Shown here: positions 17,601 to 44,175 of the stretch, piece by piece
Position numbering within the stretch: position 1 is the first letter of the stretch
Layout of the letters: every line of letters begins with the position of its first letter
DNA from: an uncultured Bordetella sp.
Lineage (GTDB): Bacteria; Pseudomonadota; Gammaproteobacteria; Burkholderiales; SG8-41
Length of the DNA: 64,000 bases
Direction: 5' to 3'
Assembly (NCBI GenBank): GCA_964486865.1
Contig: CAZAOZ010000004.1
Location: 38,602-102,601 of the forward strand
Notes under the pieces: model-generated
What the model saw: the letters and a program-made list of their open reading frames with translations, nothing else
Told to the model about the DNA's origin: nothing
Database searches by the model: none
Translations under genes and position numbers: made by a program

Positions 17601-17728
17601 TTGTCATTAAAAACAACGGGTTGCCATTAAGTTCCGGGAGAATTTTACCCCGCAGTCTATCCCCCGCTATTGATCTTCAGTACACTGCGCCCGTCATAGT
17701 GGTTGCGTCCATAAAAGCGAGGAGTTGA

Positions 17729-31289: not shown

Positions 31290-31390
31290 GGGACGATGGT
31301 AGCGCAGCCGTGATCACACGGTACTAAAGTCCGGCAGGAAACCTGCCGTTATGTCCCGCAGGTTCTTAGTCAGCCAATCAGGGTATCGCC

Positions 31391-32245
31391 ATGCAAAACA
31401 CCGTAGCTGTTGAACGCGAAGCCGAAGACATCGCCAAATCCGTAGGCATCCCGCCCTGCCCAGCCGTGCTGACCGGGCTGGTCGGCCAGATGCGCAACGA
31501 AGAACCCGACTTCCCGAAAATCGCGAAGCTGATCGGCACCGACGTCGCGCTGGCCGCGACCATGCTCAAAACCGTCAATTCGCCGTTCTACGGACTGCCG
31601 CAGAAAGTCAGCTCGATCCAGCAGGCGCTGGCGCTGCTCGGCCTGCGCAACGTGTCGCATCTGGTCACGCGGCTGCTGTTCCAGCAGGCCTTCCCGGTGA
31701 CGGACGGCGCCGCCATGGAACGCTATTGGGAATCGTCGTCGAACATTGCCATGATTCTTGCCTGGCTCGCGCGCAAGACCAAAAAACTCGACCGCGACGA
31801 CGCCTACACCTACGGTCTGTTCCGTGACTGCGGCATCCCGGTGATGATGCTCAATTTCACCGACCACCCGGATCTGCTCGACCAGGCCTACAACAACCCG
31901 GACCAGGTGCTGACGGAGATCGAGGATGAACAGCTCGGCGTTGATCACGCCAGTGTCGGCGCCGAACTCGCCGAATCCTGGCACCTGTCCACGGCGACCT
32001 GCCTCGCCATCAGGCGCCATCATGACTACACCATCTACGATAAAGAGTCCGACCTGCCGCCGCAGAGCTTCATCATGGTGTCGCTCGGCATCGTCGCCGA
32101 GAAGCTGTACCGCGGGCATTGCGGCGACACGCCGGGCGCGGAGTGGACACGCGCCGGCGCCGCGGCCCTGCAGGCCGCCGGCATCAGCGAAGAAGATCTG
32201 GCGGAATTCGCCGGCGAAATCGACGACGTGCTGGCTGCTGGCTGA
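31391..32245 (+). CDS. HDOD domain-containing protein
   Basis: LPPCPAVL-type N-terminus, KIAKLIGTDVALAATMLKTVNSPFYGLPQKVSSIQQALALLGL, and a HD-like C-terminal part. Confidence 0.8.
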   Translation: MQNTVAVEREAEDIAKSVGIPPCPAVLTGLVGQMRNEEPDFPKIAKLIGTDVALAATMLKTVNSPFYGLPQKVSSIQQALALLGLRNVSHLVTRLLFQQAFPVTDGAAMERYWESSSNIAMILAWLARKTKKLDRDDAYTYGLFRDCGIPVMMLNFTDHPDLLDQAYNNPDQVLTEIEDEQLGVDHASVGAELAESWHLSTATCLAIRRHHDYTIYDKESDLPPQSFIMVSLGIVAEKLYRGHCGDTPGAEWTRAGAAALQAAGISEEDLAEFAGEIDDVLAAG

Positions 32246-32261
32246 AGCGCCCGGTTTTTAA

Positions 32262-32430
32262 ACGGACGTGTCTGTTCAGCACGAACGAAACGTCAAAAGC
32301 CTCCCTCACCCGGCGCTGCGCGCCACCCTCTCCCGGAGGGCGAGGGTTTACCCCCTCTCCCTCCGGGAGAGGGGCTGGGGGTGAGGGAAGTTGTTGAATT
32401 TTCGTTCGCGCTGAACAGACACAAACGGAC
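32262..32430. repeat. REP family 3 compound palindrome
   Basis: Outer arms gtctgttcagcacgaacgaaa / tttcgttcgcgctgaacagac enclose ccctctcccggagggcgaggg and ccctctccctccgggagagggg hairpins. Confidence 0.8.
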
Positions 32431-32467
32431 AACAACTGGCCGTTCGTCCAGCGCTTCATTCACAGGC

Positions 32468-33430
32468 TCAGCGCTCGACCTGGATACCCGCAGCCTTCAC
32501 CACCTTACCCCACTTCTCGATATCGGCGCGGAGGAAGCTGGTGAACTCATCCATCGACATGGTCAGCGGATCGGCGCCGACCGCAACGAGTTTCTCGCGC
32601 ACCGCCGGCGTGTTGACGGTTTTGACGATGGCATCGTGCAGTTTGGCGGCGATGTCGCGCGGTATTTTTGCCGGCGCCAGCAGCGCGTAGTGATTGGTCA
32701 TCTCCACATTGGCATACCCCGATTCCTTCGCCGTCGGCACCTCAGGGAAATACGGCGAGCGCTTGCTGCTGGCCACGGCAATGGCGCGCACCCTGCCGCT
32801 TTTCACGTAAGGTGAAACCACCGGCAGGTCCACGAACATGCCCTGGATCTGCCCGGCGATCACATCGCTCACTGCGGGCGCCGCGCCCTTGTAGGGCACA
32901 TGCGTGACCTTGATCTTCGCATCACCCATCAGCATCTCCAGTGCCAGATGCAGAATGCCGCCGTTGCCGGCCGAGCCGAAGGCGATCTGGTTAGGGCGCG
33001 CCTTGGCGAGCGCGACAAACTCCTTCAATGTTTTCACCGGCATCGACGGGTGAATCACGATCAGGCTGGCGGTCGTCATCACCGGCGACAGCGGCTGCAG
33101 ATCGCGCAGCGTGTCGTAGGGCGGCCTGGCGTAGGTCACCATGTTGATCGACGTGACGCTCGCGGTGGACATCAGCAGGGTGTAGCCATCAGGCGCCGAG
33201 CGGATCACGTTTTCCGCGCCGATGATGCCGTTGGCGCCGGCGCGGTTGTCCACGATGATCGCCTGCCCGAGTAGTTCGGTCAGGCGCGGCCCGACGGTGC
33301 GCGCCGTGATGTCGGCCGGACCACCCGCCGCAAACGGCACGACGATGCGGATGGGTTTGGCCGGGAAGTTTTGCGCATGTGCGGTGGTGATGGCCAGCAG
33401 CGCGGTGGTCAGGACAATTACGTGTCTCAT
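32468..33430 (-). CDS. tripartite tricarboxylate transporter substrate-binding protein (Bug/TctC family)
   Basis: Signal peptide, then KPIRIVVPFAAGGPADITAR...DNRAGANG..., full length 320 aa. Confidence 0.88.
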   Translation of the reverse strand: MRHVIVLTTALLAITTAHAQNFPAKPIRIVVPFAAGGPADITARTVGPRLTELLGQAIIVDNRAGANGIIGAENVIRSAPDGYTLLMSTASVTSINMVTYARPPYDTLRDLQPLSPVMTTASLIVIHPSMPVKTLKEFVALAKARPNQIAFGSAGNGGILHLALEMLMGDAKIKVTHVPYKGAAPAVSDVIAGQIQGMFVDLPVVSPYVKSGRVRAIAVASSKRSPYFPEVPTAKESGYANVEMTNHYALLAPAKIPRDIAAKLHDAIVKTVNTPAVREKLVAVGADPLTMSMDEFTSFLRADIEKWGKVVKAAGIQVER

Positions 33431-33557
33431 GGTTTCTCTCTGAAAATGACGCTAAATACTCAAGATCATGCTGGCTCTGACCCTCGGCAACCTTGGCACT
33501 CTTTCCTGATGTTGTTCAAACAACGATCCTTCACCGAGGATAGCAATTTTCCCTGGA

Positions 33558-34088
33558 TCAATCGCGGCGTCCCTGTTGATCCTCTCGTTTCCTGGACCGC
33601 TCATTCCCAGACCCGTCGCGGACAAACCGAACCGGATAGCGGAAAAGTGGGCGGCTCTCCCCGGGCCGACCGGTCGAGAAGTCAACGTATGGCATCACGT
33701 CTCCCCACATTCCCCCCGCTGCGAACTTATCGCGCGGCGTATCAGGAAATACGGCTTCATCCACAACCGCCTTTCTACGGTCTTGGTCTGGATTCGGCTG
33801 CAAGACGAGGCTCAGTAGCTCGGCTTGGGTTGGCAGGCGCCACGGTGTTTCGCGGCGAGGTCTCAGCAACTCATTGCCAATCCCGCCATTGCCGGACGGC
33901 TCGCCCACGCATCGATCTTGCGCCAGATGCATGCCTCTGGCGCAACGTCTCCAGATGAGATGGGTTTCCCTGTCCAGAACCTCTTCGCCCTGGTACAGCA
34001 ATTCGTAGCGGCCCGCCGGCATCTGTGCTGCTGCGATGCCGCTCGCGACGAGAAGGACTGCCGCGAATACCGCGCTACGCACGCTCAT
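33558..34088 (-). CDS. DUF1566 (Lcl C-terminal) domain exported protein
   Basis: Signal peptide ...GIAAA|QM. HLIWRRC, PWRLPTQAELLSLV and YPVRFVRDG match the DUF1566 pattern. ATGA overlap with the upstream gene. Confidence 0.68.
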   Translation of the reverse strand: MSVRSAVFAAVLLVASGIAAAQMPAGRYELLYQGEEVLDRETHLIWRRCARGMHLAQDRCVGEPSGNGGIGNELLRPRRETPWRLPTQAELLSLVLQPNPDQDRRKAVVDEAVFPDTPRDKFAAGGMWGDVMPYVDFSTGRPGESRPLFRYPVRFVRDGSGNERSRKREDQQGRRD

Positions 34089-34528
34089 CGAATTTTCGCC
34101 CGCTCTTCCCTCATGAGTTTGTCAGTATCCACGCCTTTTTCTTTCATCAACCCGAGTGTGCGCTCCCATCCTTTGCGCTGGGTCACCATCTCCTTGTCGA
34201 AATCGCCGGCCGACATGCCCAGGCAACTGGCACTGTCTTTTGCGATCTCTCGTTTGATATTCGCGTCCGAGCAGTCCTCGGCTTTTTTCAAATTATTCTT
34301 CACAGACATCTGGCAAGCGCGTGCGACGTAGCCGGGATACTCAGGCGAACCTCTGGTGGCCGCGCAATATCCCTTGAGGTCGCGCTTCGCCATCGGCACT
34401 TCCGCGCTTGCGATCAATTTGGCACCTTTGCGCATTTCTGCGTCGGGCTCCGCCCCCCAAACACCGGACGCGGTGAACAACATGCTGGTGACAAAAAAAA
34501 CCAGTGCCATGCGAATCCTGATAGCCAT
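34085..34528 (-). CDS. hypothetical exported protein (4 Cys)
   Basis: Strong RBS AAGGAG 6 nt upstream and signal peptide ...SGVWG|AE. No family recognised. Confidence 0.55.
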   Translation of the reverse strand: MAIRIRMALVFFVTSMLFTASGVWGAEPDAEMRKGAKLIASAEVPMAKRDLKGYCAATRGSPEYPGYVARACQMSVKNNLKKAEDCSDANIKREIAKDSASCLGMSAGDFDKEMVTQRKGWERTLGLMKEKGVDTDKLMREERAKIR

Positions 34529-34650
34529 GATGACTCCTTGTCAGTATTGTGGTTCGGAAAAAACGGGATAACCAGAACAAAGAACAATGCGTCAGCCGTA
34601 CTGTTCAAAACGAATTACGCCAACCGATGATCCCTTGAGCAGCCGATTGT

Positions 34651-34977
34651 TCATCGTCTGTACACACCACCACCAACCCTGGGATCGTCGGCTTGGGTCT
34701 TGGGTGCCGGGCTGGTCGCTGGTTGCACCGCTGTGTCCGTCACAACACCGGGCGGACCCTCTTCACGGCGCTCAACAGGACGTTTGCCAGCTCGGTACGC
34801 CGCCGATTCCGCAGCATACAATCGATTGGTGCAATCCCGGCATTCGTAACGTTGTTCAAAATATTCCATCTTGACGGGGAGTGCTGACTTTCCCGGCAGG
34901 GAACTTGAAACGATGCCGGAAATTATCCGCTCCACTTCTGCCGTTACATCACTTTTGCAGAGACTGCAGCTATACAT
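34651..34977 (-). CDS. small CxxC...CxxC (zinc-ribbon-like) protein, long paralogue
   Basis: MYSCSLCKSDVTAEV...MEYFEQRYECRDCT, GGGGGA RBS. Paralogous to 35052..35258. The tail ends QADDPRVGGGVYRR. Confidence 0.5.
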   Translation of the reverse strand: MYSCSLCKSDVTAEVERIISGIVSSSLPGKSALPVKMEYFEQRYECRDCTNRLYAAESAAYRAGKRPVERREEGPPGVVTDTAVQPATSPAPKTQADDPRVGGGVYRR

Positions 34978-35051
34978 TTCTGATCCCCCAACAAGGTGAG
35001 AACGAGTCGGCAGGCTCGCTTTGCCGTTGCACAGCGCACGCTTTCGCCGGT

Positions 35052-35258
35052 TCAGCTGCGGCGTCTTGCTGCTCTTTCCGCCGCCGTTTCCGCCGCAGAT
35101 GCCTGTTGATTGCAAGCCCGGCAAACATAGCGTTGTTCAAAATATTCCATCATTCCCGGGAATCCTGCCTGTCCCGGCGCAGAACTTGAAACAATGCTGG
35201 AAATCTCCCGGTCTACTTCTGCCGTTACATCTCTTTTGCAGAGACTGCAGCTATACAT
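35052..35258 (-). CDS. small CxxC...CxxC (zinc-ribbon-like) protein, short paralogue
   Basis: MYSCSLCKRDVTAEV...MEYFEQRYVCRACN, with the same RBS and upstream sequence as the neighbouring copy. Confidence 0.5.
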   Translation of the reverse strand: MYSCSLCKRDVTAEVDREISSIVSSSAPGQAGFPGMMEYFEQRYVCRACNQQASAAETAAERAARRRS

Positions 35259-35366
35259 TTCTGATCCCCCAACAAAGTTAGAACGGGATGGCAGGCTCGT
35301 ACTGCCGCTGTACGGCATGATGTCCCGAGCCAATCATGTGCATCGGTGAACCCCGCCATTCCCTCA

Positions 35367-36995
35367 TCAGGCGCACCGACCCAACAGTCCGCGGCCGACC
35401 TGGAAATGTACGTCGACCGCTGAACCGCCATCGGGCTTGTCAAGCGTTTCGCCGTACTTGCACGCGAACCAGTAGGTCGTCTCCCCGGAGGTATGCATGA
35501 TGGACTGACTGTTCGGTCCTGCGCCGATGTGCCACATGCCGCCCCCGTTTTTCTCGCAGTCCATAAATCCGGAATCGCTGCCTCTGGTGGGCCGATAGAC
35601 ACAGTAGATGTACTCAACGGCATACGGACACGCGTTAATCACTCCGCCACCTTGTTGCGGCTTCAAGCATTGATGCGCCTCCAGGCCGGCTTGGTGACGC
35701 TTGGGTTTTCCCTGGCGTGCCCGGTCAAGTTCGGCCTGGCGTTTCTGGGCAAGCGCGGTGGCTCGGTTCACGTCTTGGGAAATGTGGGTGGCTCCAGGCG
35801 TACCGGCTGGATCACGATTTTCATTGTCCGTTGTGCTTCCGGCACCCGCGAGCTTCAGGTTCCCACTTTTAATCCAGGCTTGTGCGTTTGGGTGCCCCGC
35901 GCAACGTCCCTCAAAGAGTTCTATCTCGACACGACCAAGACGAGCCTTCACGTCGTTTGCATTGCCTGGCCAGCTTTTTGATTCACGATGCACGGCCAAT
36001 ATTTCTCGGTTACAGGAGATGATTTGGTCGGGCGATAAACCTCCCGGGACTGTATTTGCCGGTGAACTGGGGGAAGGGGGGGTTACGGATGTACGCTTGA
36101 TCTGGGCCGCCATATGGCGAGCGACGCACGCATACACCAGTTGCTCCGCGCCCCACTGCGAAGTTTCAAGCTCCTTCGCTTTCTTGGTATAAATGTCCGC
36201 CATTAGCAGAAGCGCGTCACCGTAGTTTGGTGAAGTTGGAGCAGGCGGACGATTCTTATCCTTAAATGCATTACAAATTGGGGGGGCGCTAGGGGAAAAC
36301 GTCCGGATTCCGTCATGTCCCATTTTCATGCCGCCACAGCCATAACTAAGATAGTTGCTGAAGTCCTGCATCGTACGCGGTATCGTTTCATTCATTAGTA
36401 CGTTTATTGGCCTGTCGATGGCTCGAAAACCAGATGTTGTCGCATTGGAAAGCGTTCTGAGCCGCTGACGCTCGGCCTCACAAACCTGCGTAGGTTGAGA
36501 GGGAGGCGAACTGCCGCGTTCAAGCACGCTTATCTGCGCACGGATCACACACAAAAGATATCTTTGAAAAAAAGCCCCACGCAGTTGGCCAGCGTCCCGA
36601 ACATTCATCTCTTGCGATTTTTCCCACAATTGCAATCCGCGGAGATTTCTCTCTATGTCCGGAAACCTTTTCTTTATTCCTGTACCCGATGCGGACTCTG
36701 CCAGCTCTCTTCTGAGGGGGTCGTAGTCTGCTTTGAAGACAAGTATCCTCTCCAATGAACCGGGATCACTGGGGCGAATCTTGAGAAGAGCATTGGCTGG
36801 CTCCTCTCTGACCGCCGCCTGATGCTCTGCTTCGCAAACCTGCGCAATTGCCTGAGAGGACGCGCAAACCAGCATCAACCCTATCAACACTGACCATGGA
36901 TTGATTGGCTTCCTGGATTCACGGAGACGATCCGGCGGCAAAGCAACCATTTCTCCATCATTCATTTCATTCTCCTTGGGCAAACGATTGCTCAT
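35367..36995 (-). CDS. hypothetical exported cysteine-rich protein (542 aa)
   Basis: N-terminal signal anchor or peptide ...SSQAIA|QV, a repeated QVCEAE motif, and a C-terminal six-Cys module shared with 37818..39041. ATGA overlap with the upstream gene. Confidence 0.6.
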   Translation of the reverse strand: MSNRLPKENEMNDGEMVALPPDRLRESRKPINPWSVLIGLMLVCASSQAIAQVCEAEHQAAVREEPANALLKIRPSDPGSLERILVFKADYDPLRRELAESASGTGIKKRFPDIERNLRGLQLWEKSQEMNVRDAGQLRGAFFQRYLLCVIRAQISVLERGSSPPSQPTQVCEAERQRLRTLSNATTSGFRAIDRPINVLMNETIPRTMQDFSNYLSYGCGGMKMGHDGIRTFSPSAPPICNAFKDKNRPPAPTSPNYGDALLLMADIYTKKAKELETSQWGAEQLVYACVARHMAAQIKRTSVTPPSPSSPANTVPGGLSPDQIISCNREILAVHRESKSWPGNANDVKARLGRVEIELFEGRCAGHPNAQAWIKSGNLKLAGAGSTTDNENRDPAGTPGATHISQDVNRATALAQKRQAELDRARQGKPKRHQAGLEAHQCLKPQQGGGVINACPYAVEYIYCVYRPTRGSDSGFMDCEKNGGGMWHIGAGPNSQSIMHTSGETTYWFACKYGETLDKPDGGSAVDVHFQVGRGLLGRCA

Positions 36996-37621
36996 CGCCT
37001 GTAAGACCCGCCTACTACTTTGGGATCGTCAGCTTGGGCATTGGGCCCTGCGTTGCCCGCAGGTTGACGCACAACCTGCGCTTGAACCGGTTGCCCGACC
37101 GACCCCGTGAGCCGGGCAAGACTCGCGCCGTCGCCCGGGTTCGGGCTGAACCCGAACTTGGTGTTGCTCAGCTTCATCATGCCGGCACTGAATCCGGGAG
37201 AATTCAGCGCAGCCAATAGCGCACGCTCCAAGTCCCTGACTATGCTTGCTGGAGTTCCCGGAGGAGCAAATACTCCCGCCCACCTCCAATTTGAAGTTTC
37301 ACCGACAACGGCTGCCAATGGCACAAGACCGCCTACCTCAGGTGCAGGCTGACTGATTGCTGCAGTGACAATGATTATCTGACTGCCGTCCGCTCGTGCA
37401 TTACCGAATCCCCGGACGGCAACGGCTCCAACTTCGCCAGGCACGTTGCTGATAACTACCGGTTTCCCGAGAATAGGGGCCAGCTCCGTCCCAAGGATTC
37501 TTGCGACGATGTCAGTCAGTCCTCCGGGCGGGAAAGGAACAGTCAATTGAACGGCCTGAGCAAAAGCAGTCGCGCTGGATACCAGCCAAAGCACGGCAAT
37601 CAGATTGCGTAGCGTGTTCAT
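36992..37621 (-). CDS. Bug/TctC-like periplasmic protein lacking the central domain
   Basis: Signal peptide ...TAFA|QA. LTVPFPPGGLTDIVARILG aligns with IVVPFAAGGPADITARTVG of the neighbouring TctC, but the protein is 209 aa against 320 aa. C-terminal tail QADDPKVVGGSYRR. Confidence 0.58.
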   Translation of the reverse strand: MNTLRNLIAVLWLVSSATAFAQAVQLTVPFPPGGLTDIVARILGTELAPILGKPVVISNVPGEVGAVAVRGFGNARADGSQIIIVTAAISQPAPEVGGLVPLAAVVGETSNWRWAGVFAPPGTPASIVRDLERALLAALNSPGFSAGMMKLSNTKFGFSPNPGDGASLARLTGSVGQPVQAQVVRQPAGNAGPNAQADDPKVVGGSYRR

Positions 37622-37817
37622 TTATATTCTTTCAAAGATGACATTAAGTGCGGTCATTAAAAGTATCGTTACTTTGGGTAATACCACCCTGTCTCTGAGT
37701 CGCCCGCCTGGAGGAAGCTGACTGCGCATGGGCCAAAGTAGACAATAGGCGGAAGGCAGTGGTCAATTGCCGCAACACACTGGCCGGGGTCACGCAAGGC
37801 TCCTCGTTGGTCCTGCG

Positions 37818-39041
37818 TTATTGGATCGGAATAATCCGGGCATCCAGCGGTCCAGGATGAAAAGCATTGCCGCGTCGTTTGATGCACGCGCGATTGCCTG
37901 CCAGGGTGACACCGCCCTTCCGTATGACTTCAATCTGTTCAGTCCTGGCGTCACAGGCAAATACGGATTTACGGGTTGTTATCAGGTTTCGATCAAAGAA
38001 ATTAAACCGCGTCGATGGGTGTGTTCCCATAGGCTGGTCACGCGGTATTTTTCCCGTTCGCTGTATCGTGTCGCCGCCGTATAAATTCTCGCAGCCTTGC
38101 CGCGTATCCTGTATTGCTCCGGTCAGAACATTGCGCCCGCCCGAGACATAACAAAAATGGGTAGTAAGGTAGTTGGGACACGTATTCACCAGCACCACGG
38201 CCTTCTCAATTCGGGAGCGTGGCTCGCCTGCCGCCCATGTGCTGGTGTCGACGGACGGGTCATTGCCTGCAGGAACAACTTTCAGGCAATGCGCCATTGA
38301 CCCGGTGACCTCGACCATGTCGCTGGATGGGCTCGCAGAAGCTGCGCCGGGGCCACCGCCACTGCCGCCCGGGGAATTACCCGCCAGCGCCTCCAGCGCC
38401 AGTTGTCTTCGTTCGGCGGCAGTTTTGCCGCCTGCTGCCGCTGCAACTGCACCGCTCAGCAGGCCCAGCACTTGTGGCTCGGCTGCCGGCTGACGGACCG
38501 GCGCCCAGGTTGCGCCCATGCTCGCGAGCAGATCCTTGCCGTCGGTTTGCCGGCTCCAGTCGTCCATGGCCAGCAGAAAGGGCCTCGGCATGTCGAGAAA
38601 TGGCATCTCGGTGCGCGGCTGCAGCGCCGAGCCGACGATTGCGGTGCGCCAGCCGATCAACGCATCACCCTTGCGACCGACCTCGTACATCACGCCGCTG
38701 TTGCGCAGCCCGCGCTCGATATGGCCCTCGAAAAAAAACACCGGCTGCTGCTCGTAGTCATAACCTGTTACCGCGCCCCGTCCCTGCATCCGCCCGCCGT
38801 GGCATGCGCCGCTCCAGGTGAGGCCGCGCACTGCGGCGGCCGAGAAGGACAGCGCGCAGCCGCTCTCGGTGAAGCTGACGTGGCGCCCGGAAATCTCGGG
38901 ATCGGGCTGCGACTGGAACAGCAGCGGCGCGCCGCTGATCGCACGCTGGGAGGTGACCTGGACGGGTGACTGCGCATGGGCCACGGCAGGCAACAGGCAG
39001 CAGGCGGCGATCAGGCACCACAGCGCACGGATGAGTGTCAT
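37818..39041 (-). CDS. hypothetical exported protein (407 aa) with C-terminal six-Cys module
   Basis: Start MTLIRALWCLIAACCLLPAVAHA|QS, preceded by a GGGGAA RBS. Gly/Ala/Ser-rich linker, then the module CLK...NTCP...FCY...CEN...FAC...C. Confidence 0.6.
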   Translation of the reverse strand: MTLIRALWCLIAACCLLPAVAHAQSPVQVTSQRAISGAPLLFQSQPDPEISGRHVSFTESGCALSFSAAAVRGLTWSGACHGGRMQGRGAVTGYDYEQQPVFFFEGHIERGLRNSGVMYEVGRKGDALIGWRTAIVGSALQPRTEMPFLDMPRPFLLAMDDWSRQTDGKDLLASMGATWAPVRQPAAEPQVLGLLSGAVAAAAGGKTAAERRQLALEALAGNSPGGSGGGPGAASASPSSDMVEVTGSMAHCLKVVPAGNDPSVDTSTWAAGEPRSRIEKAVVLVNTCPNYLTTHFCYVSGGRNVLTGAIQDTRQGCENLYGGDTIQRTGKIPRDQPMGTHPSTRFNFFDRNLITTRKSVFACDARTEQIEVIRKGGVTLAGNRACIKRRGNAFHPGPLDARIIPIQ

Positions 39042-39151
39042 GCAATGTTCCCCGTTCAATGTGTATCGAAATAACTGGCTCAACTTGGGACAGGTATACC
39101 GGCAAAAGAGCCCACCGCACTATCATGGTCTGAACTGGCCCCTGGTGTTGT

Positions 39152-41266
39152 CTACCACGCGACCCTTGGCGCGCAATCGGCACTGTTGGTCGCGATCTGC
39201 CTGCAGGCCCGCATGGTGCTGTCTTGCGACTGCTTCATCGAAGCATATCCACCATACTCCGGTTGCCCCCTGCATAACCGGTCAAGCAGCTTTAGTCGCT
39301 CGCTCATCATGTAGAGTCCGACCTGCATGCTGGGCACGGTGGAATTTGCGGCCCCAGTACTTTTCCCGCGTTGGTTGATAACCGTGAAATCGGCCTCCTG
39401 CTGGGCAACAGCCGCCTTGCAGGTTCCGTCAGGCGGTCTTGCCGGTGCGCCGCCCCCTCCCGCAACCGATGTTTCCTGAAACAGTTGCCGAATTGCCGCT
39501 TCAGTCCTGGCCGCTGTGCCACCGTAACTCTGACCAGTGTCGCAATTGAAGGGGCCTCCACTCCTCAGGCTCTCCGTTTGCCGGCAATACCCCTGCGTGC
39601 TGCGCAAACTGGCCGCCACTGCCTCCTTGGATGACTGATCATTGGCACAGGCGGGGTGCGTGTTGGCAACCCGCACGTAAATCTGCGCAGCCCAGACCTG
39701 ATCCGAATAAATCTGCCCCAGCGGATACCGGAGATTGCTCCCCGCCGCATTCATCGGGTTGCCATCATTCACTGGTCCCACCAAGCTTTCCAGTATCTCG
39801 CGACAGCTTCTGCCACCGGCACTTGCCCCTCTGCCACCGGCGCCTGCACCAGTTGCGGCAGTGTTGGCCGATGCCACAGACGGGCCACGAGTCGCATTGC
39901 TGATTGCCCGTGACTTCTCCTGCTCCAGTGCACTGACCTCCTGCTCGCAACTGCTCTTGGCCTGGTCACAGCGATTGCTGCATTGCTGGACCTGTTCGCC
40001 GGCAGCACCGGAAGCTGAGGAACCTCTGGCCATGAATATCGAAAACACGCCCACCGCCGCAACGGCCATGCAACCCGTATTGCAGCTGCTGTCATTGGCG
40101 GCGCACTGCTCGCGCGCAGCGGCAATGCGCTGGTCGAAACTGTCCGTGATGCGCTCTGCGGGTGTCTGGTTTGCGATCCGTTCGGCCTCACGAGCCCTTT
40201 CCAGCCTTGCACTGGCTTCCTGCGCCTTCCGGTTTTTTTCCTCCTGCTCTCTGTCCGCCCGCGCCTGTGTGTCCGCGAGATTTTTATCCACCCAAGCACC
40301 GGCTTCCCGCTTGCTTTCCTCCTCCTTGCTGGTCGGCTTCTGTTCGGACGAGAAAGCCTTGCTGAACCAGTCGCTGACTTGACTGATGCCTTTCTCAACT
40401 TGACTGACGCCTTTCTCCAGCAGGCCCGCAATACCATCGGTGCCCCCGGCCGGTTCGGTTTTTTTCGATTTCGGTTCTTCGGGCGTATCCCAGAATTTCA
40501 GATAATCAGCCAGCGCGACTTTGGGCGTCTTGCCGGAACTCGGCAGCGTAGTCGGGCATGCCGGATACGGGGTGCTTGCCAGGCTCCGGTAGCCAGCAGC
40601 ATCCGCGCCCAGCCCACCCCCATCAATCAGGCTCTGGAGGTTCCTGCGTAACTCTTCGTGCCCCTGTTTTGTTGAAAGACAGGCATTGATATTCCCGTCG
40701 GCGAGCGCACAGCGCTCCTTGGCGCGCACGGCATCGCGCATATTCGCCTCGTTGGTTGCGGCGTCGCACATGAGCAAGCCTTCTTTGGCCAGCCCCAGAC
40801 CCGCATCCCACACAGTTGTGTCATAGACCTTTCCCTTCAGCCGCTCGACAATTTCATCAGCTTTCTCCTTGGCGCCCGGCTGTTTGGGACCGCCGGATAA
40901 ATATTCCCCGCATTTGGTCCGGTCAAAATCAAACAGGCAACTGGAAATCCCGGACTGGGGCACACCGCTCTCGACCAGCGCGTTACTGACCCTGCTATCC
41001 GTCACTTCGGTGGCGCTGCCCCTGCCGCCCAATCCGAGTCTGGAAAGAAAGCTTTTCGCCTTGATGCAGGTATCCGCAATGCCAAAAACAAAACGGCAGC
41101 CGGCGTGAGCGGAACACAGACTTGCCTGAAAGCGCTGATCTTCCGTCATGTCGTTGTCGCAATTGGCGGGGTTGGCATGCGCCCCGGCACTGACCAGCAA
41201 CGCAACGCATAAAGCCGCAACCCGCACCCGGTCCGACCGGGACGGAAAAAAGGAAATACTTGCCAT
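39152..41266 (-). CDS. hypothetical exported cysteine-rich protein (704 aa) with central charged coiled-coil-like region
   Basis: Start MASISFF...LLVSAGAHA|NP. The 849-aa track form would overlap the phoD start and has no signal peptide at its N-terminus. More than 25 Cys, and a KEEESKRE...REQEEKNRKAQEASARLERAREAER segment. Confidence 0.6.
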   Translation of the reverse strand: MASISFFPSRSDRVRVAALCVALLVSAGAHANPANCDNDMTEDQRFQASLCSAHAGCRFVFGIADTCIKAKSFLSRLGLGGRGSATEVTDSRVSNALVESGVPQSGISSCLFDFDRTKCGEYLSGGPKQPGAKEKADEIVERLKGKVYDTTVWDAGLGLAKEGLLMCDAATNEANMRDAVRAKERCALADGNINACLSTKQGHEELRRNLQSLIDGGGLGADAAGYRSLASTPYPACPTTLPSSGKTPKVALADYLKFWDTPEEPKSKKTEPAGGTDGIAGLLEKGVSQVEKGISQVSDWFSKAFSSEQKPTSKEEESKREAGAWVDKNLADTQARADREQEEKNRKAQEASARLERAREAERIANQTPAERITDSFDQRIAAAREQCAANDSSCNTGCMAVAAVGVFSIFMARGSSASGAAGEQVQQCSNRCDQAKSSCEQEVSALEQEKSRAISNATRGPSVASANTAATGAGAGGRGASAGGRSCREILESLVGPVNDGNPMNAAGSNLRYPLGQIYSDQVWAAQIYVRVANTHPACANDQSSKEAVAASLRSTQGYCRQTESLRSGGPFNCDTGQSYGGTAARTEAAIRQLFQETSVAGGGGAPARPPDGTCKAAVAQQEADFTVINQRGKSTGAANSTVPSMQVGLYMMSERLKLLDRLCRGQPEYGGYASMKQSQDSTMRACRQIATNSADCAPRVAW

Positions 41267-41694
41267 GTGAGATCCTGTATTCAGGGAAATACCCGGTTTG
41301 ACCGCAAGAAAAGACCGTAACAACATCACCGCAGAGCGTTTTAGTGTTTTTACTCCTCGCGCAATCGCTGCGAACTGATTACCCGGCGCGCGGCCGGCCA
41401 TAAAATAACAGAGAAACACGTCACGCTCCCCCGAAATAAATGCGACGCCATAAAAAATAAATTCGCCTGTAGCCAGGCGGCCTGATATGCCGCAGTCACG
41501 CCTGCGCAGCGCCAGGAAGGCGCTGCCAGACTTGCTCTCCGGTCCCATGTGCGGCCGCATCGCCGGCAAGAAATATCCATAAAAACAAATTGTTATACAT
41601 AGCCTTTGCCCGTACCCGGCGTTGATCGAATACAGGCGCCGTGACTCCCGGCTGTAGGCCTGTTGCAATCTTCGCGCGTTAACATTCGCACGCC

Positions 41695-43251
41695 ATGCCA
41701 ATCACCCGCCGCGATTTTTTGCTCCGCAGTGCAGCATTGTCCGCCGCACTGGCGCTGCCCGCGCCGCGCGTAATCGCACAGCCGCGCTTTGCACAAAACC
41801 CGTTTTCACTCGGCGTCGCTTCCGGTTATCCGCAGCCTGATTCCGTCGTGCTGTGGACGCGGTTGGCGCCCGATCCACTGCACGGCGGCGGCATGCCGCC
41901 TGCCGCCGTGAACGTGCGCTGGGAAATCGCCGCTGACGAACATTTTCAGAAAATTGTCGATCGCGGCGCAGTTGCCGCCGTGCCGGCCTTTGCCCATGCG
42001 GTGCATGTCAACGCGCGCGGCCTGCAGCCGGCGCGCTGGTACTGGTACCGCTTCATGGCAGGTGATGCGGTGAGCCCCGTCGGCCATACGCGCGCAGCAC
42101 CCGCCGCGGATGACCAGCACACCCCGCTCGCCTTCGCCCTTGCTTCATGCCAGCACTACGAGCACGGATTTTTTGCAGCCTATCGCGACATGGCGCAGCA
42201 GCCGCTGGATCTGGTCATCCATGTCGGCGATTACATCTATGAGGCGTCGTGGGGCCGCAAAGCGGATTTTGTGCGCCATGTCGGCGCGCCGGAACCGTAC
42301 ACGCTCAACGATTACCGCAACCGCTACGCCCTCTACAAAACCGATCCGCATCTGCAGGCCGCCCACGCCGCCTGCCCGTGGCTGGTGACCTGGGACGATC
42401 ACGAAGTCGATAACGATTACGCCAACGACCGCTCGCAGGATCTGGACCCGGTCGATGCGTTCCTCGCGCGGCGCGCCGCGGCGTATCAGGCGTATTACGA
42501 ACACATGCCGCTGCCGCCGGGCAGCTACGCCGGCGGGCCCCACATGAAAATCTACGGCACGCACGCCATGGGCGCGCTGGCGAATATCCAGATGCTCGAC
42601 ATGCGCCAGTACCGCGACTACCAGGTGTGCCCGCGCAAGGGCCGCGGCGGCGGCAATCAGGTCAATGTCGCCGAATGTCCCGAGCTCACCCTGCCGGGCC
42701 GCTCATTGCTGGGCGCAACGCAGGAGCGCTGGCTGGAACAGGCGCTGACGAATTCCGCGGCACGCTGGAATGTGCTCGCGCAGACCACGCTGATGGCGCA
42801 GGCCGACCGCGAGCCGGGCACGGCACGGATTGTGTACACCGACGGCTGGGACGGCTATCCGCGCGCGCGGGAAAAACTGCTGGGCTTCATCGCGCAGCGC
42901 AAAATCCGCAATCCGGTCATCATCGGCGGCGACGTGCATTTCGCCTCGGCCAACGAACTGAAAGTGGATTTCGACCACGAAAAATCACCGGTGGTCGCCA
43001 GCGAATTCGTCACCACCTCGATCAGTTCCTTCGGCCCCGGCCAGGCGCGCATCGACGCACTGCTGGCAGAGAATCCGCATGTCAGATTCGCCAACGGCGC
43101 GCGCCGCGGTTACGCGCGCTGCACGGTCACGCCGCAGCGCTGGGAAACGACCTTCCGCGCGGTATTCCATCCCGCGGATGAACATTCCCGGGTGTATGCA
43201 CTGGCGAACTATGTGGTCGAGAACGGCCGCGCGGGGCCGCAGCGGGGGTAA
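41695..43251 (+). CDS. phoD: alkaline phosphatase D family protein (Tat-exported)
   Basis: Twin-arginine signal MPITRRDFLLRSAALSAALA. PhoD motifs WTRLAP, GDYIYE, WDDHEVDNDY and GDVH. Confidence 0.9.
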   Translation: MPITRRDFLLRSAALSAALALPAPRVIAQPRFAQNPFSLGVASGYPQPDSVVLWTRLAPDPLHGGGMPPAAVNVRWEIAADEHFQKIVDRGAVAAVPAFAHAVHVNARGLQPARWYWYRFMAGDAVSPVGHTRAAPAADDQHTPLAFALASCQHYEHGFFAAYRDMAQQPLDLVIHVGDYIYEASWGRKADFVRHVGAPEPYTLNDYRNRYALYKTDPHLQAAHAACPWLVTWDDHEVDNDYANDRSQDLDPVDAFLARRAAAYQAYYEHMPLPPGSYAGGPHMKIYGTHAMGALANIQMLDMRQYRDYQVCPRKGRGGGNQVNVAECPELTLPGRSLLGATQERWLEQALTNSAARWNVLAQTTLMAQADREPGTARIVYTDGWDGYPRAREKLLGFIAQRKIRNPVIIGGDVHFASANELKVDFDHEKSPVVASEFVTTSISSFGPGQARIDALLAENPHVRFANGARRGYARCTVTPQRWETTFRAVFHPADEHSRVYALANYVVENGRAGPQRG

Positions 43252-43280
43252 TACGTATCTTGTTGTTAACCCAAACCTTC

Positions 43281-43377
43281 TAGCCACAGAGGACACAGAG
43301 TTCACAGAGAAAATCCCGGCAATATCAATGCACAAGGGACTCAACGACGCGAGGTGCCCTCTGCGCCCTCTGTGGCC
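43281..43377. repeat. REP family 2 hairpin element (CACAGAG type)
   Basis: tagccacagaggacacagagttcacagag ... gtgccctctgcgccctctgtggcc. Confidence 0.8.
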
Positions 43378-43399
43378 GCCTTTGAAGTTAATTGATGTT

Positions 43400-43696
43400 T
43401 TACAGGCCGAGGATGCGCGCAATCTCGGCGGCATAGCGACTGATGGTCATGCCCTCATAGACCGCCTCGTCCACGGTGGCGTCGAGCAGGCCGCGGATGT
43501 CGTGCAGGCTGTCGCTGACCCAGTGGTGGCGCTGCACGGGCGAGTTGAGCACGTTGCGCAGTGTCTGCACTTCATCGCGCAATCGCTGCACATCCTGCGA
43601 GTCGCCGCGCACCTTGGCGAGATCGCGCTCCAGCGCGTCGAGCAGTTGTGCGGCCTGTTCGAGATCGATGTCTTTCGACTTGTCTTGTGCGCTCAT
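43400..43696 (-). CDS. hypothetical small helical protein (possibly DUF4404-like)
   Basis: 98 aa starting MSAQDKSKDIDLEQAAQLLDALERDLAKV... The upstream part of the track ORF is a translation of REP family 3. Confidence 0.45.
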   Translation of the reverse strand: MSAQDKSKDIDLEQAAQLLDALERDLAKVRGDSQDVQRLRDEVQTLRNVLNSPVQRHHWVSDSLHDIRGLLDATVDEAVYEGMTISRYAAEIARILGL

Positions 43697-43754
43697 GGTG
43701 TTGCTCCTGCAAGACCGGTTTGAAACAAAGTGCGGAACAATGCGGCTGCCCCGC

Positions 43755-43795
43755 CCCCTCTCCCTGCCCTCTCCCCGCATGCGGGGAGAGGGGAG
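43755..43795. repeat. REP family 3 element
   Basis: ccctctccctgccctctccccgcatgcggggagaggggag hairpin. Confidence 0.75.
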
Positions 43796-43800
43796 TTTAT

Positions 43801-44175
43801 TTAATTCTCGCGCCAGCGTTCCAGTTGCCGCCGTTCGCGTTTGGTCGGGCGGCCGTGGCGATCCTGCGCCGGATCGGCGGCGAACTTGCGCAACGCAGCC
43901 TGCTCTTCGCGCTTCACCCGGCTCGCTTCGTCCTCAATATACAGCGCGCGCGCCACGGTCGCCGAACCGCGCTTGTCCGACAATCCGGCAATACGGACGG
44001 CCCATTCATACGCGCCGATATGGATCACCAGTTCGTCGCCGATGCGCACTTCCTTCGCCGGCTTGACGCGCTCGCCGTGCAGTTTGACCTTGCCGCCTTC
44101 CACCGCCTGCTGTGCCGTCGAGCGTGTTTTGAAAAACCGCGCGGCCCACAGCCATTTGTCGATGCGGATGGACAC
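43801..44175 (-). CDS. hslR: ribosome-associated heat shock protein Hsp15 (S4 RNA-binding domain)
   Basis: (M)SIRIDKWLWAARFFKTRSTAQQAVEGGKVKLHGERVKPAKEV. GTG start at 44175, 5 nt after the upstream stop. Confidence 0.8.
   Translation of the reverse strand: MSIRIDKWLWAARFFKTRSTAQQAVEGGKVKLHGERVKPAKEVRIGDELVIHIGAYEWAVRIAGLSDKRGSATVARALYIEDEASRVKREEQAALRKFAADPAQDRHGRPTKRERRQLERWREN

What the first reader, a model, noticed from the sequence alone, without database searches (positions are those of the whole stretch)
33431..41694. Lower-GC islet of about 8.3 kb encoding eight co-directional genes, six of them exported and mostly cysteine-rich, with no family I can name
Composition drops visibly between the Bug/TctC gene (32468..33430) and phoD (41695..). 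Hand counts of single 60-nt lines give about 45% GC at 36361-36420 and 57% at 40021-40080, against about 70% at 42481-42540. The strong third-position G/C bias of the flanks is also lost. All eight ORFs are on the minus strand with short gaps or ATGA overlaps (36992-36995, 34085-34088), so the arrangement looks like an operon. Six begin with classical signal peptides (AHA|NP, AHA|QS, AFA|QA, AIA|QV, VWG|AE, AAA|QM). The 704-, 407-, 542- and 147-aa products carry many cysteines and no catalytic motif I recognise. Only the last gene (DUF1566) and a truncated Bug fold are identifiable. The remaining two genes encode small cytoplasmic CxxC...CxxC proteins. No integrase, transposase, tRNA or flanking direct repeat explains how the islet arrived. 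This is the best candidate in the window for an undescribed envelope or extracellular system, but its function is unknown.
Basis: partly seen in the sequence, partly recalled or inferred. Interest (0 to 1): 0.8.

Follow-up and report, generated by a model that had tools for sequence, protein, structure and literature searches.

The report
Variable islet of exported cysteine-rich proteins
An 8.3-kb stretch of unusual composition in an uncultured betaproteobacterium encodes exported, disulfide-rich, mix-and-match proteins from undescribed families; one of them belongs to a recurring three-gene module, including a short peptide tail shared by unrelated neighbouring genes, whose function is still unknown.

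Summary
The islet has 57.7% GC against 64.1% elsewhere. Its tetranucleotide distance is 0.328, against 0.114±0.013 for other chunks of the same size. It has eight co-directional ORFs, six of them with signal peptides.

The four large or cysteine-rich products (g1, g2, g4, g6) match nothing in Pfam, NCBIfam, PADLOC, PHROGs or PDB. They are not junk: dN/dS against relatives is 0.08-0.26.

The eight genes are not one conserved operon. They are a patchwork at a variable site next to phoD.
- g1 is conserved next to phoD in a related MAG. g2 is replaced by another gene in the closest relative.
- g3-g4-g6 is a module seen in about seven other contexts. An unrelated periplasmic protein (DsbA, cyclophilin, MORN protein, or here the TctC-like g3) ends in the same translated tail, DDPKxVGGxY[KR][PR]. 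Next comes a protein ending in a new 6-Cys domain (405 clusters, none annotated). Then comes the small exported g6.
- The two "CxxC" ORFs are leftovers of a zinc-ribbon Ser/Thr kinase gene.
- g7 is an ordinary DUF1566 protein.

My working model is a periplasmic complex assembled by tail docking. That model is inference only.

The parts
33431..41694 (.). Compositionally deviant islet between the Bug/TctC gene and phoD
   Evidence: GC is 0.577 against 0.640. Tetranucleotide distance is 0.328 against 0.114±0.013.
41267..41694 (.). AT-richer intergenic region between the divergent genes g1 and phoD. It presumably holds both promoters.
   Evidence: Sequence read. No consensus sigma-70 site, no Pho box above chance and no Rfam match.
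39152..41266 (-). g1: 704-aa exported protein with 24 cysteines, predicted all-helical. It has a signal peptide, a conserved N-domain (aa 32-268), a coiled coil, a Cys-stapled helical hairpin with a hydrophobic tip (aa 334-458), and a recombinant C-terminal module.
   Evidence: 22 homologous clusters among 5.8 billion, none with a Pfam domain. Alignment A1 shows the mosaic. AF2 gives an all-helical model with pLDDT 60. dN/dS is 0.20-0.26 against L007, with dS of 0.20, 0.41 and 1.37 along the gene.
39893..40267 (-). g1 middle module: C-x7-C-x3-C, then the hydrophobic stretch MAVAAVGVFSIFMARG, then C-x3-C-x6-C.
   Evidence: Conserved in 20 homologues by a local HMM. It is the only internal hydrophobic 19-mer in g1 (Kyte-Doolittle 1.73).
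37818..39041 (-). g2: 407-aa exported protein. The N-domain (aa 11-183) is conserved and carries a MORN-like motif. The C-terminal part is variable and cysteine-bearing.
   Evidence: 12 homologous clusters, none with a Pfam domain. Alignment A3. The same N-domain is fused to the g4-type C-domain in P0047, P0065, P0138 and others. L020 has a different 145-aa gene at this position.
37719..37808 (-). Degenerate copy of the g2 start and signal peptide, just downstream of the g2 stop. It is a pseudogene fragment.
   Evidence: Direct repeat D3, 90 nt at 70% identity to 38967-39056. Translation ...LLSTLAHAQS followed by an early stop.
36992..37621 (-). g3: 209-aa exported, shortened TctC-like protein that ends in the tail motif.
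   Evidence: Pfam TctC 1.4e-9, 38.3 bits. It is closer (40% over 162 aa) to the N-termini of TctC-like/C-domain fusion proteins P0155, P0081 and P0172 than to the neighbouring Bug protein (29% over 93 aa). dN/dS is 0.24 against L020.
36992..37030 (-). Tail motif DDPKVVGGSYRR plus stop codon at the end of g3.
   Evidence: The same tail ends DsbA, cyclophilin and MORN genes that lie upstream of C-domain genes elsewhere. Variable columns by codon position are 2, 6 and 12 of 12.
35367..36965 (-). g4: 532-aa exported protein with 14 cysteines in the mature part. It has helical N-terminal modules (one duplicated, one shared with P0035 and P0047) and a C-terminal 6-Cys domain.
   Evidence: Alignment A2. 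The L020 orthologue has 313 aa and lacks about 220 internal residues. The AF2 model is poor (pLDDT 49.6): helical N-part, beta-rich C-part.
35370..35744 (-). C-terminal 6-Cys domain ('Cdom') with its preceding basic motif: GKPKRH..AH.CLKP..GGGV.N.CPYAVEY.YCV...
   Evidence: A profile search of 1.84 billion cluster representatives found 405 clusters at E<=1e-3. The domain lies within 15 aa of the C-terminus in 134 of 153 proteins, and 123 of 153 have an N-terminal hydrophobic segment. No Pfam match covers it in 50 members. No PDB match. dN/dS is 0.21.
35052..35258 (-). g5b: 68-aa CxxC...CxxC zinc-ribbon ORF. It is the conserved remnant of the N-terminus of a kinase gene.
   Evidence: 47% identical over 51 aa to the N-terminus of a 462-aa zinc-ribbon/Pkinase protein in L016. 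It is intact in L020, with dN/dS 0.09.
34651..34977 (-). g5: 108-aa chimera made of a zinc ribbon, a linker and the tail motif DDPRVGGGVYRR.
   Evidence: Tandem paralogue of g5b (repeat D1, 206 nt at 83%). Its tail belongs to repeat D2 (34633-34725 matching 36974-37066). Against L020 it has 9 nonsynonymous and 1 synonymous change.
34592..34654 (-). 20-codon remnant (MNNRLLKG...) of the leader of a second, deleted C-domain gene.
   Evidence: It aligns with the g3/g4 junction. Translation.
34085..34528 (-). g6: 147-aa exported helical protein with 4 cysteines. It is the conserved downstream partner.
   Evidence: Homologues follow C-domain genes in L015, L016, L020, L021, L023 and L024, and lie in g1 clusters in L004 and L006. 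dN/dS is 0.08. No Pfam or PDB match.
33558..34088 (-). g7: 176-aa exported DUF1566/Lcl_C protein. Its start overlaps the g6 stop.
   Evidence: Pfam Lcl_C 2.5e-10, 41.1 bits against a cut-off of 34.9, covering profile positions 3-117 of 117.
34830..35316 (.). Tandem duplication that created g5 and g5b.
   Evidence: Repeat D1: 34830-35035 and 35111-35316, 83% identity.

Best explanation
The islet is a patchwork of lineage-restricted genes at a variable site next to phoD. The genes encode Sec-exported, disulfide-bonded proteins built from shuffled modules. Most of them are kept by purifying selection. There are three parts.

(1) g1 and g2. g1 is a helical, cysteine-rich protein. g2 carries a MORN-like motif. 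Both have a conserved N-domain and a C-terminal part that has been exchanged by recombination.

(2) A recurring three-gene module, g3-g4-g6. An upstream periplasmic partner ends in a flexible linker and the peptide DDPKxVGGxY[KR][PR]. Here that partner is the TctC-like g3. The next protein, g4, ends in a new 6-Cys beta-rich domain. The small exported g6 completes the module. Between g4 and g6 lie the scars of a deletion that removed a zinc-ribbon Ser/Thr kinase domain and a second copy of the module.

(3) g7, a DUF1566 lectin-fold protein.

Proposed mechanism (inferred, not shown): the C-terminal tail docks the upstream partner onto the C-domain protein, perhaps together with g6. That would give a periplasmic or envelope complex in which the constant C-domain is the common platform and the variable N-terminal modules and tail-tagged partners supply binding or folding activities. 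In some relatives a cytoplasmic zinc-ribbon kinase is encoded in the same cluster; this genome has lost the kinase domain.
For: Shown.
- The composition is anomalous.
- Six products have signal peptides, and all five cysteine-bearing mature products have even cysteine counts.
- No known family matches g1, g2, g4 or g6, or their relatives.
- Selection is purifying: g1 0.20-0.26, g3 0.24, C-domain 0.21, g5b 0.09, g6 0.08.
- Modules are shuffled. The g2 N-domain is fused to the C-domain in P0047, P0065, P0138, P0108, P0070 and P0066. A g3-like TctC module is fused to the C-domain in P0155, P0081 and P0172. The first part of the g1 N-domain occurs in the L009 MORN protein. All three families fall into one BLAST component. 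dS of the g1 C-terminus is 1.37, against 0.20 for its N-terminus.
- The tail motif ends five unrelated upstream genes: TctC-like, zinc-ribbon remnant, MORN, cyclophilin and DsbA. It was found in all eleven contigs besides the window in which the 5' flank of a g4-type C-domain gene could be read, and nowhere else in the window or the loci.
- Variation in the tail is codon-periodic in the upstream reading frame (variable columns 2, 6, 12; pairwise differences 20, 65, 138), whereas the linker just before it is unconstrained (11, 10, 12). No conserved RNA structure is predicted there.
- g6 homologues lie downstream of C-domain genes in six other contigs.
- In L016 a zinc-ribbon/Pkinase gene (3.6e-36) follows g6, and g5 and g5b match its N-terminus.
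- The site is variable. L007 has phoD, g1 and then different low-GC genes. L020 has a different gene in place of g2 and a shorter g4.
Against: - No structure, interaction or expression data exist. The two AF2 models are of low confidence (pLDDT 60 and 49.6) and Foldseek found nothing significant.
- Tail docking is pure inference. The tail could be conserved for some other reason, such as processing, sorting or translational coupling.
- g6 is absent next to the C-domain gene in L009, L012, L013, L014, L017 and L019. The tail is absent or divergent upstream of the distant C-domain genes in L012, L017 and L019.
- The kinase link rests on a single locus (L016) plus the remnants in the window and in L020.
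- Whether g1, g2 and g7 work together with the g3-g4-g6 module is unknown. g1 homologues occur alone (L002, L007).
- All relatives come from metagenomes, mostly on short contigs, so the sample of contexts is small.
Confidence: 0.45

Rival explanations
1. The islet is an interbacterial antagonism locus of the polymorphic-toxin kind. g1 would be a helical pore former with a hydrophobic hairpin, or the C-domain would be an exported toxin. g6 would be the periplasmic immunity protein. The fragments would be orphan cassettes.
For: g1 and g2 have conserved N-terminal and variable C-terminal parts. Recombinant modules and truncated duplicates are present. The composition is low in GC and the site is variable. 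g1 has long helices and a Cys-stapled hairpin with a hydrophobic tip. g6 is small, exported and lies downstream.
Against: No toxin, immunity or delivery domain is detected. No T5SS, T6SS, T7SS or TpsB genes lie within ±10 kb. The genes downstream of g1 do not track its C-terminal type: g2 in the window, TctC in L007, an MFS gene in L002. g6 is well conserved (38-70% identity), whereas immunity proteins normally vary with the toxin. In the g4 family it is the C-domain that is constant. A Foldseek match to ClyA had E=7.4 and is not significant.
Confidence: 0.15
2. The islet is the extracytoplasmic sensing arm of a Ser/Thr-kinase signalling module. The exported binding modules (TctC-like, MORN-like, DUF1566) would report to a cytoplasmic zinc-ribbon kinase. 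In this genome that kinase has decayed.
For: L016 has the order C-domain gene, g6, zinc-ribbon/Pkinase. L017 has a zinc-ribbon/RDD membrane protein directly upstream of a C-domain gene. The binding-type modules are TctC-like, MORN-like and lectin-fold.
Against: The L016 kinase has no membrane-spanning segment visible in its sequence, so no link across the membrane is apparent. The kinase is absent from the window, L009, L015 and L021-L024. Its DFG motif reads NFS.
Confidence: 0.15
3. The tail motif is not a functional peptide. It is merely the 5' edge of a mobile or recombining C-domain cassette, or of its regulatory leader, that upstream ORFs happen to read into.
For: The conserved block runs on past the stop codon into a spacer with a Shine-Dalgarno sequence and the start of the C-domain gene. 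In L013 and L021 this block is nearly identical although the upstream genes differ. One copy in the window (g5) is attached to a decaying chimera.
Against: All five different upstream genes are fused in frame. Variation shows a strong third-position bias in that frame (2, 6, 12), while the adjacent linker shows none. No RNA structure is predicted (-0.51 kcal/mol).
Confidence: 0.2
4. The islet is horizontally acquired DNA with no current function that is simply decaying.
For: The islet contains a truncated TctC gene, kinase remnants, a signal-peptide fragment and internal repeats. g5 has 9 nonsynonymous against 1 synonymous change. The public gene caller skipped g5 and g5b.
Against: dN/dS is 0.08-0.26 for g1, g3, the C-domain of g4, g5b and g6. 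The ORFs are intact in relatives that differ by 6-30% in nucleotide sequence.
Confidence: 0.05

Closest known systems
Polymorphic or mosaic secreted-protein loci (CdiA/CdiI, Rhs, Neisseria MafB) - comparison from general knowledge
   Same: The N-terminal part is conserved and the C-terminal modules are exchangeable. Truncated 'orphan' fragments and internal repeats are present. The locus is variable, deviant in composition and lacks its own mobility genes.
   Different: No recognisable toxin, immunity or pre-toxin domain is present, and no dedicated secretion partner. Export appears to be by plain Sec signal peptides. Downstream genes do not co-vary with the C-terminal type. In the g4 family the C-terminal domain is the constant part.
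Dedicated DsbA paralogues encoded next to their substrate (for example DsbL/DsbI with arylsulfate sulfotransferase, or SrgA with PefA fimbriae) - from general knowledge
   Same: In relatives (L015, L021-L024) a DsbA gene lies immediately upstream of the cysteine-rich C-domain gene.
   Different: In this window the upstream partner is a shortened TctC-like protein, not DsbA. The shared C-terminal tail on DsbA, cyclophilin, MORN and TctC-like partners has no described counterpart that I know of.
Bug/TctC periplasmic solute-binding proteins (PF03401)
   Same: g3 scores above the Pfam threshold and has a signal peptide.
   Different: g3 has 209 aa instead of about 320. It belongs to a reduced TctC-like module that is otherwise found fused to the C-domain. 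It carries the tail motif. No tctA or tctB gene lies beside it.
DUF1566 / Lcl C-terminal domain (PF07603). This is the glycosaminoglycan-binding domain of the Legionella adhesin Lcl (PMC11162425). The search that retrieved that paper also retrieved several papers on diversity-generating retroelements that mention DUF1566; none of these papers was read.
   Same: g7 matches the whole domain above threshold and is exported.
   Different: g7 is a single-domain 176-aa protein without a collagen-like region. No reverse transcriptase or template/variable repeat pair lies nearby.
Integron cassette arrays, including clusters of attC sites without an integrase
   Same: The ORFs are co-directional and closely spaced, mostly of unknown function and often exported. 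The content varies between relatives.
   Different: No intI gene is present. No attC-like inverted repeats lie at the gene ends in the repeat scan. The conserved junction is a coding tail plus a ribosome-binding site, not a recombination-site palindrome.

Membership tests
TctC/Bug (PF03401) - g3 | Score above the Pfam gathering threshold | tested here: met
   38.3 bits against a cut-off of 27, E=1.4e-9.
TctC/Bug (PF03401) - g3 | Full-length two-lobed binding protein (about 274 profile positions, about 320 aa) | tested here: not met
   g3 has 209 aa. The best stretch covers only profile positions 201-252. The alignment to the neighbouring Bug protein covers 93 aa at 29% identity.
DUF1566 / Lcl_C (PF07603) - g7 | Full-domain match above the gathering threshold | tested here: met
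   41.1 bits against 34.9, covering profile positions 3-117 of 117.
Hanks-type Ser/Thr kinase - g5 and g5b | Protein kinase catalytic domain (PF00069) | tested here: not met
   Only the N-terminal zinc ribbon remains. The full-length relative in L016 has Pkinase at 3.6e-36.
Polymorphic toxin system | Conserved N-terminal region with variable C-terminal modules | tested here: met
   Alignments A1 and A3. dS is 1.37 in the g1 C-terminus against 0.20 in the N-terminus.
Polymorphic toxin system | Recognisable toxin domain, with a cognate immunity gene immediately downstream that varies with it | tested here: not met
   No toxin or immunity family is detected. The genes downstream of g1 homologues are unrelated to the C-terminal type.
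Polymorphic toxin system | Dedicated delivery machinery nearby (TpsB, T6SS, T7SS and similar) | tested here: not met
   None is present among the called genes within ±10 kb.
MORN-repeat proteins (PF02493) - g2 | Significant match to the MORN profile | tested here: not met
   No Pfam hit at E<=1. hhalign against the L009 MORN protein gives 0.4% probability, although the aligned stretch is that protein's MORN repeat.
Integron cassette array | intI integrase and attC sites flanking the cassettes | tested here: inconclusive
   No integrase family matches the eight products. No inverted repeats lie at the gene ends. No dedicated attC model was available.
Diversity-generating retroelement target (because of DUF1566) | Reverse transcriptase and a template/variable repeat pair | tested here: not met
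   No reverse-transcriptase family matches the eight islet products; the rest of the window was not scanned against protein families. No repeat involves g7 within 31000-44000.
Tail / C-domain / g6 module (defined in this report) | (a) The upstream gene ends in D[DE]P[KR]x1-3GGx1-2Y[KR]x. (b) The next gene ends in the 6-Cys C-domain. (c) A g6 homologue lies downstream. | tested here: met
   (a) 36992-37030. (b) C-domain HMM, E=4.9e-68. (c) g6 at 34085-34528. In the window, g6 is separated from g4 by the kinase remnants.

The most novel reading that the evidence does not exclude
The g3-g4-g6 unit represents an undescribed periplasmic system of Betaproteobacteria. A short C-terminal peptide tag (DDPKxVGGxY[KR][PR]) recruits interchangeable periplasmic proteins to a scaffold that ends in a new 6-Cys domain. 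The recruited proteins include a DsbA oxidase, a cyclophilin, a solute-binding-like protein and a MORN protein. The small protein g6 would be a constant subunit. This would be a modular, tag-directed way of assembling envelope complexes, possibly linked to a zinc-ribbon Ser/Thr kinase.
Probability: 0.3. Interest if true: 0.75.

Novelty: new variant of a known kind. Interest (0 to 1): 0.55.

Why it matters
The result turns an 'islet of hypothetical proteins' into defined objects that can be tested.
- Four undescribed protein families or domains are delimited. One of them, the 6-Cys C-terminal domain, has at least 405 clusters at 50% identity and no annotation. All are confined to uncultured Betaproteobacteria from soil and fresh water.
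- The families are connected by module shuffling.
- A conserved, translated C-terminal tail is shared by unrelated periplasmic proteins, among them a DsbA and a cyclophilin, whenever they lie directly upstream of a C-domain gene.

If the tail is a docking tag, it would be a new principle for recruiting folding catalysts or binding proteins to a specific periplasmic client. If it is not, the locus still provides four clean candidate families for annotation as domains of unknown function. It is also an example of a variable site that lacks any mobility gene.

Tried and rejected
- Family libraries. Pfam, NCBIfam, PADLOC and PHROGs scans of all eight products gave only TctC and Lcl_C. Pfam scans of 13 g1 relatives, 12 g2 relatives and 50 C-domain relatives gave nothing recurrent.
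- PDB profile searches with the g1, g2, g6 and C-domain alignments found nothing.
- Structure. AF2 of g1 and g4 gave low-confidence models. Foldseek against PDB found nothing at E<=0.001. The repeated weak TNF/GITRL-like hits for the g4 C-terminal part (E 0.2-2, rmsd about 10 Å) and a ClyA hit for g1 (E 7.4) are not used as evidence.
- Other collections. tblastn of g1 and g4 against 72,556 plasmids found no match. A scan of viral contigs for the C-domain found none.
- Homology of the g2 C-terminus with the C-domain: there is a shared CxK...NxC...C motif, but hhalign probability is 1.2%, so I do not claim it.
- A MORN assignment for g2 is not significant.
- A Pho box in the phoD/g1 intergenic region is at chance level.
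- Sigma-70 promoters and intrinsic terminators are at or below chance.
- Rfam finds only the distant tRNA.
- An RNA structure at the conserved junction is not supported (-0.51 kcal/mol).
- tRNA, integrase or flanking direct repeats as an explanation for how the islet arrived: none found.

Full report
OBSERVATION.
The islet is real. It has 57.7% GC against 64.1% for the rest of the window. 1-kb windows inside average 0.579 against 0.640±0.025 outside, and 72% of them fall below the outside 5th percentile. The tetranucleotide distance is 0.328 against 0.114±0.013 (maximum 0.141) for other 8.3-kb chunks. GC3 is 0.56-0.69 against 0.78-0.83 in the flanking genes.

Eight minus-strand ORFs occupy the islet. 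I call them g1 (39152-41266), g2 (37818-39041), g3 (36992-37621), g4 (35367-36965/36995), g5b (35052-35258), g5 (34651-34977), g6 (34085-34528) and g7 (33558-34088). The mature exported products have 24, 8, 0, 14, 4 and 2 cysteines. All counts are even, as expected if the cysteines are paired in disulfides. There is no nearby tRNA, integrase or transposase.

NO KNOWN FAMILY, BUT REAL GENES.
Only g3 (TctC, 1.4e-9) and g7 (Lcl_C/DUF1566, 2.5e-10) match Pfam. NCBIfam, PADLOC and PHROGs give nothing. Homologues are extremely rare: 22 clusters for g1, 13 for g4 and 12 for g2 among 5.8 billion, none with a Pfam domain and all 'hypothetical'. Only 2 of 185,579 species genomes encode a g1 relative. 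Both are betaproteobacterial MAGs. PDB profile searches are empty. AF2 models are weak: g1 is all-helical with pLDDT 60, and g4 has pLDDT 49.6. Foldseek finds nothing significant.

The genes are nonetheless under purifying selection. dN/dS is 0.20-0.26 for g1 against L007 (phoD gives 0.19). Against L020 it is 0.24 for g3, 0.21 for the g4 C-domain, 0.09 for g5b and 0.08 for g6. Only g5 looks relaxed, with 9 nonsynonymous against 1 synonymous change.

THE ISLET IS A PATCHWORK AT A VARIABLE SITE.
- In the MAG contig L007, phoD (87% nucleotide identity) is again followed by g1 (90% in its first two thirds). Then come a full-length TctC gene, unknown genes and a PrpD gene, all at 53-55% GC. None of g2 to g7 is present.
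- dS of the g1 N-terminal part (0.20) and middle part (0.41) does not exceed that of phoD (0.40). So g1 has been beside phoD since the common ancestor of the two genomes. Its C-terminal third (dS 1.37) is a recombinant replacement.
- The closest relative of the other end is L020, which is 86-94% identical over g3 to g6. It has a g1-type C-terminus, then a different 145-aa exported gene where g2 should be. Then come g3, a 313-aa g4 lacking about 220 internal residues, g5b, g5 and g6.
- Three internal repeats mark rearrangements. One is a tandem duplication that made g5 and g5b. One is a copy of the g3/g4 junction at the end of g5. One is a degenerate copy of the g2 start just after the g2 stop.
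- In other carriers, which have 55-58% GC, these genes are not compositionally deviant. This is consistent with transfer from lower-GC Betaproteobacteria into this 64% GC genome.

MODULE SHUFFLING.
- g1 relatives share an N-domain (aa 32-268) and a middle hairpin with the pattern C-x7-C-x3-C / hydrophobic loop / C-x3-C-x6-C. Their C-termini are exchangeable.
- g2 relatives share an N-domain and differ afterwards.
- g4 relatives differ in the N-terminal part and share a C-terminal domain of about 105 aa with 6 cysteines, preceded by a basic motif (GKPKRH).
- A profile of this 'C-domain' finds 405 clusters at E<=1e-3 among 1.84 billion representatives. In 134 of 153 proteins it lies at the extreme C-terminus, and 123 of 153 have an N-terminal hydrophobic segment. 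No Pfam model covers it. A few members carry TctC, TonB_C or SoxY domains N-terminally.
- The g2 N-domain is fused to the C-domain in six proteins. A g3-like short TctC module is fused to it in three. The first part of the g1 N-domain occurs in a MORN protein encoded directly upstream of a C-domain gene in L009. By BLAST, g1, g2 and g4 relatives form one connected component.

A RECURRING MODULE AND A SHARED TAIL.
g6 homologues follow C-domain genes in L015, L016, L020, L021, L023 and L024. They also lie in g1 clusters in L004 and L006.

The 5' flank of a g4-type C-domain gene could be read in the window and in L009-L011, L013, L015 and L020-L024. In every one of them the upstream gene ends in the same peptide after an unconserved Pro/Ala/Gly linker: DDP(K/R)x(V)GGxY(K/R)(P/R)-stop. 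The stop is followed by about 30 nt containing a Shine-Dalgarno sequence and the start of the C-domain gene.

The upstream genes are unrelated to each other. They are the TctC-like g3 (window, L020), a MORN protein (L009-L011), a cyclophilin (L013, PF00160 at 2.3e-47), DsbA (L015, L021-L024) and the zinc-ribbon chimera g5 (window, L020). The motif occurs nowhere else in the 64-kb window or in the loci.

Across seven distinct copies, the variable columns fall 2, 6 and 12 (of 12 each) on codon positions 1, 2 and 3 of the upstream reading frame. The linker just before it gives 11, 10 and 12. No RNA structure is conserved there. The tail therefore behaves as a translated peptide under selection.

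THE SMALL CxxC ORFs.
g5b and g5 match (47% and 43% identity over about 50 aa) the N-terminus of a 462-aa zinc-ribbon/Pkinase protein (3.6e-36). In L016 that protein follows the C-domain gene and g6. In the window only the zinc ribbon survives, duplicated. g5 is fused to a second tail motif and is followed by 20 codons of a second C-domain leader. The simplest reading is that a deletion collapsed a kinase gene and a second tail/C-domain cassette, leaving g6 behind. This is inference.

INTERPRETATION.
Shown:
- The products are exported, disulfide-type modular proteins of undescribed families restricted to Betaproteobacteria.
- They lie at a variable site.
- A tail/C-domain/g6 module recurs in other contexts.

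Inferred:
- The tail docks the upstream partner onto the C-domain protein and/or g6.
- The C-domain acts as the constant platform, and the N-terminal modules and partners supply variable activities.

The presence of DsbA and a cyclophilin among the tail-bearing partners suggests dedicated folding help for a cysteine-rich client.

Rival readings are an antagonism locus, a kinase-linked sensor, a non-functional cassette edge, and decaying DNA. They are weighed in the rival entries. None is excluded except wholesale decay.

Operon status is untested. The gaps are 74-196 nt or overlaps, and consensus promoter and terminator scans are uninformative.

VERDICT.
The families are indeed undescribed and exported, but the eight genes are not one conserved unit, and part of the islet is rearrangement debris. 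The most interesting product of the follow-up is the C-terminal tail shared by unrelated periplasmic proteins upstream of a new 6-Cys domain family.

Noticed in passing
window 32248-32442: A nested palindromic element lies in the intergenic space just downstream of the Bug gene. It has 64-nt arms at 77% complementarity (32248-32311 / 32379-32442). These enclose a near-perfect 21-nt hairpin CCCTCTCCCGGAGGGCGAGGG / CCCTCTCCCTCCGGGAGAGGG (32326-32373). It looks like a REP-type or terminator element.
   Followed up: no
window 43283-43376: A 23-nt inverted repeat at 83% complementarity with a 48-nt spacer lies just downstream of the phoD stop (43251). It may be a terminator or a REP-like element.
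   Followed up: no
window 40377-40417: A 21-nt tandem repeat (2 copies, 95% identity) lies inside g1. It encodes the duplicated heptad EKGVSQV / EKGISQV in the poorly conserved linker after the N-domain.
   Followed up: no
L006 1-9140: A Logan contig carries a much longer co-directional array around a g1 homologue. It starts with a DUF4189 protein (1.1e-19), followed by a 357-aa protein, g1 (758 aa), proteins of 81, 163, 278, 65, 465 and 237 aa, and a g6-like protein. Most have no Pfam match. The 237-aa and 426-465-aa families recur in the Sulfuritalea MAG (L004) and in L003.
   Followed up: partly
L004 14339-15169: In the Sulfuritalea MAG the g6 homologue is a tandem fusion of two g6 domains (276 aa; 71% and 47% identity to g6). 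It lies on the strand opposite to g1.
   Followed up: partly
L016 993-2381: The zinc-ribbon Ser/Thr kinase next to the C-domain/g6 pair reads HSDLQPAN in the catalytic loop and NFS in place of DFG. It may therefore be a pseudokinase or an atypical kinase.
   Followed up: no
L017 9237-10004: A zinc-ribbon/RDD membrane protein overlaps the start of a distant C-domain gene (P0185). It ends in ...PPDEPLLSGSGGKP, which may be a divergent form of the tail motif.
   Followed up: partly
L007 801-9332: In the related MAG, all the DNA beyond phoD (at least 8.5 kb) is at 50-60% GC, against 64% for the phoD end. So the site next to phoD carries a different low-GC insert in that genome.
   Followed up: partly
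window 17501-18500: This is the only 1-kb window outside the islet with GC below 0.58 (0.571).
   Followed up: no
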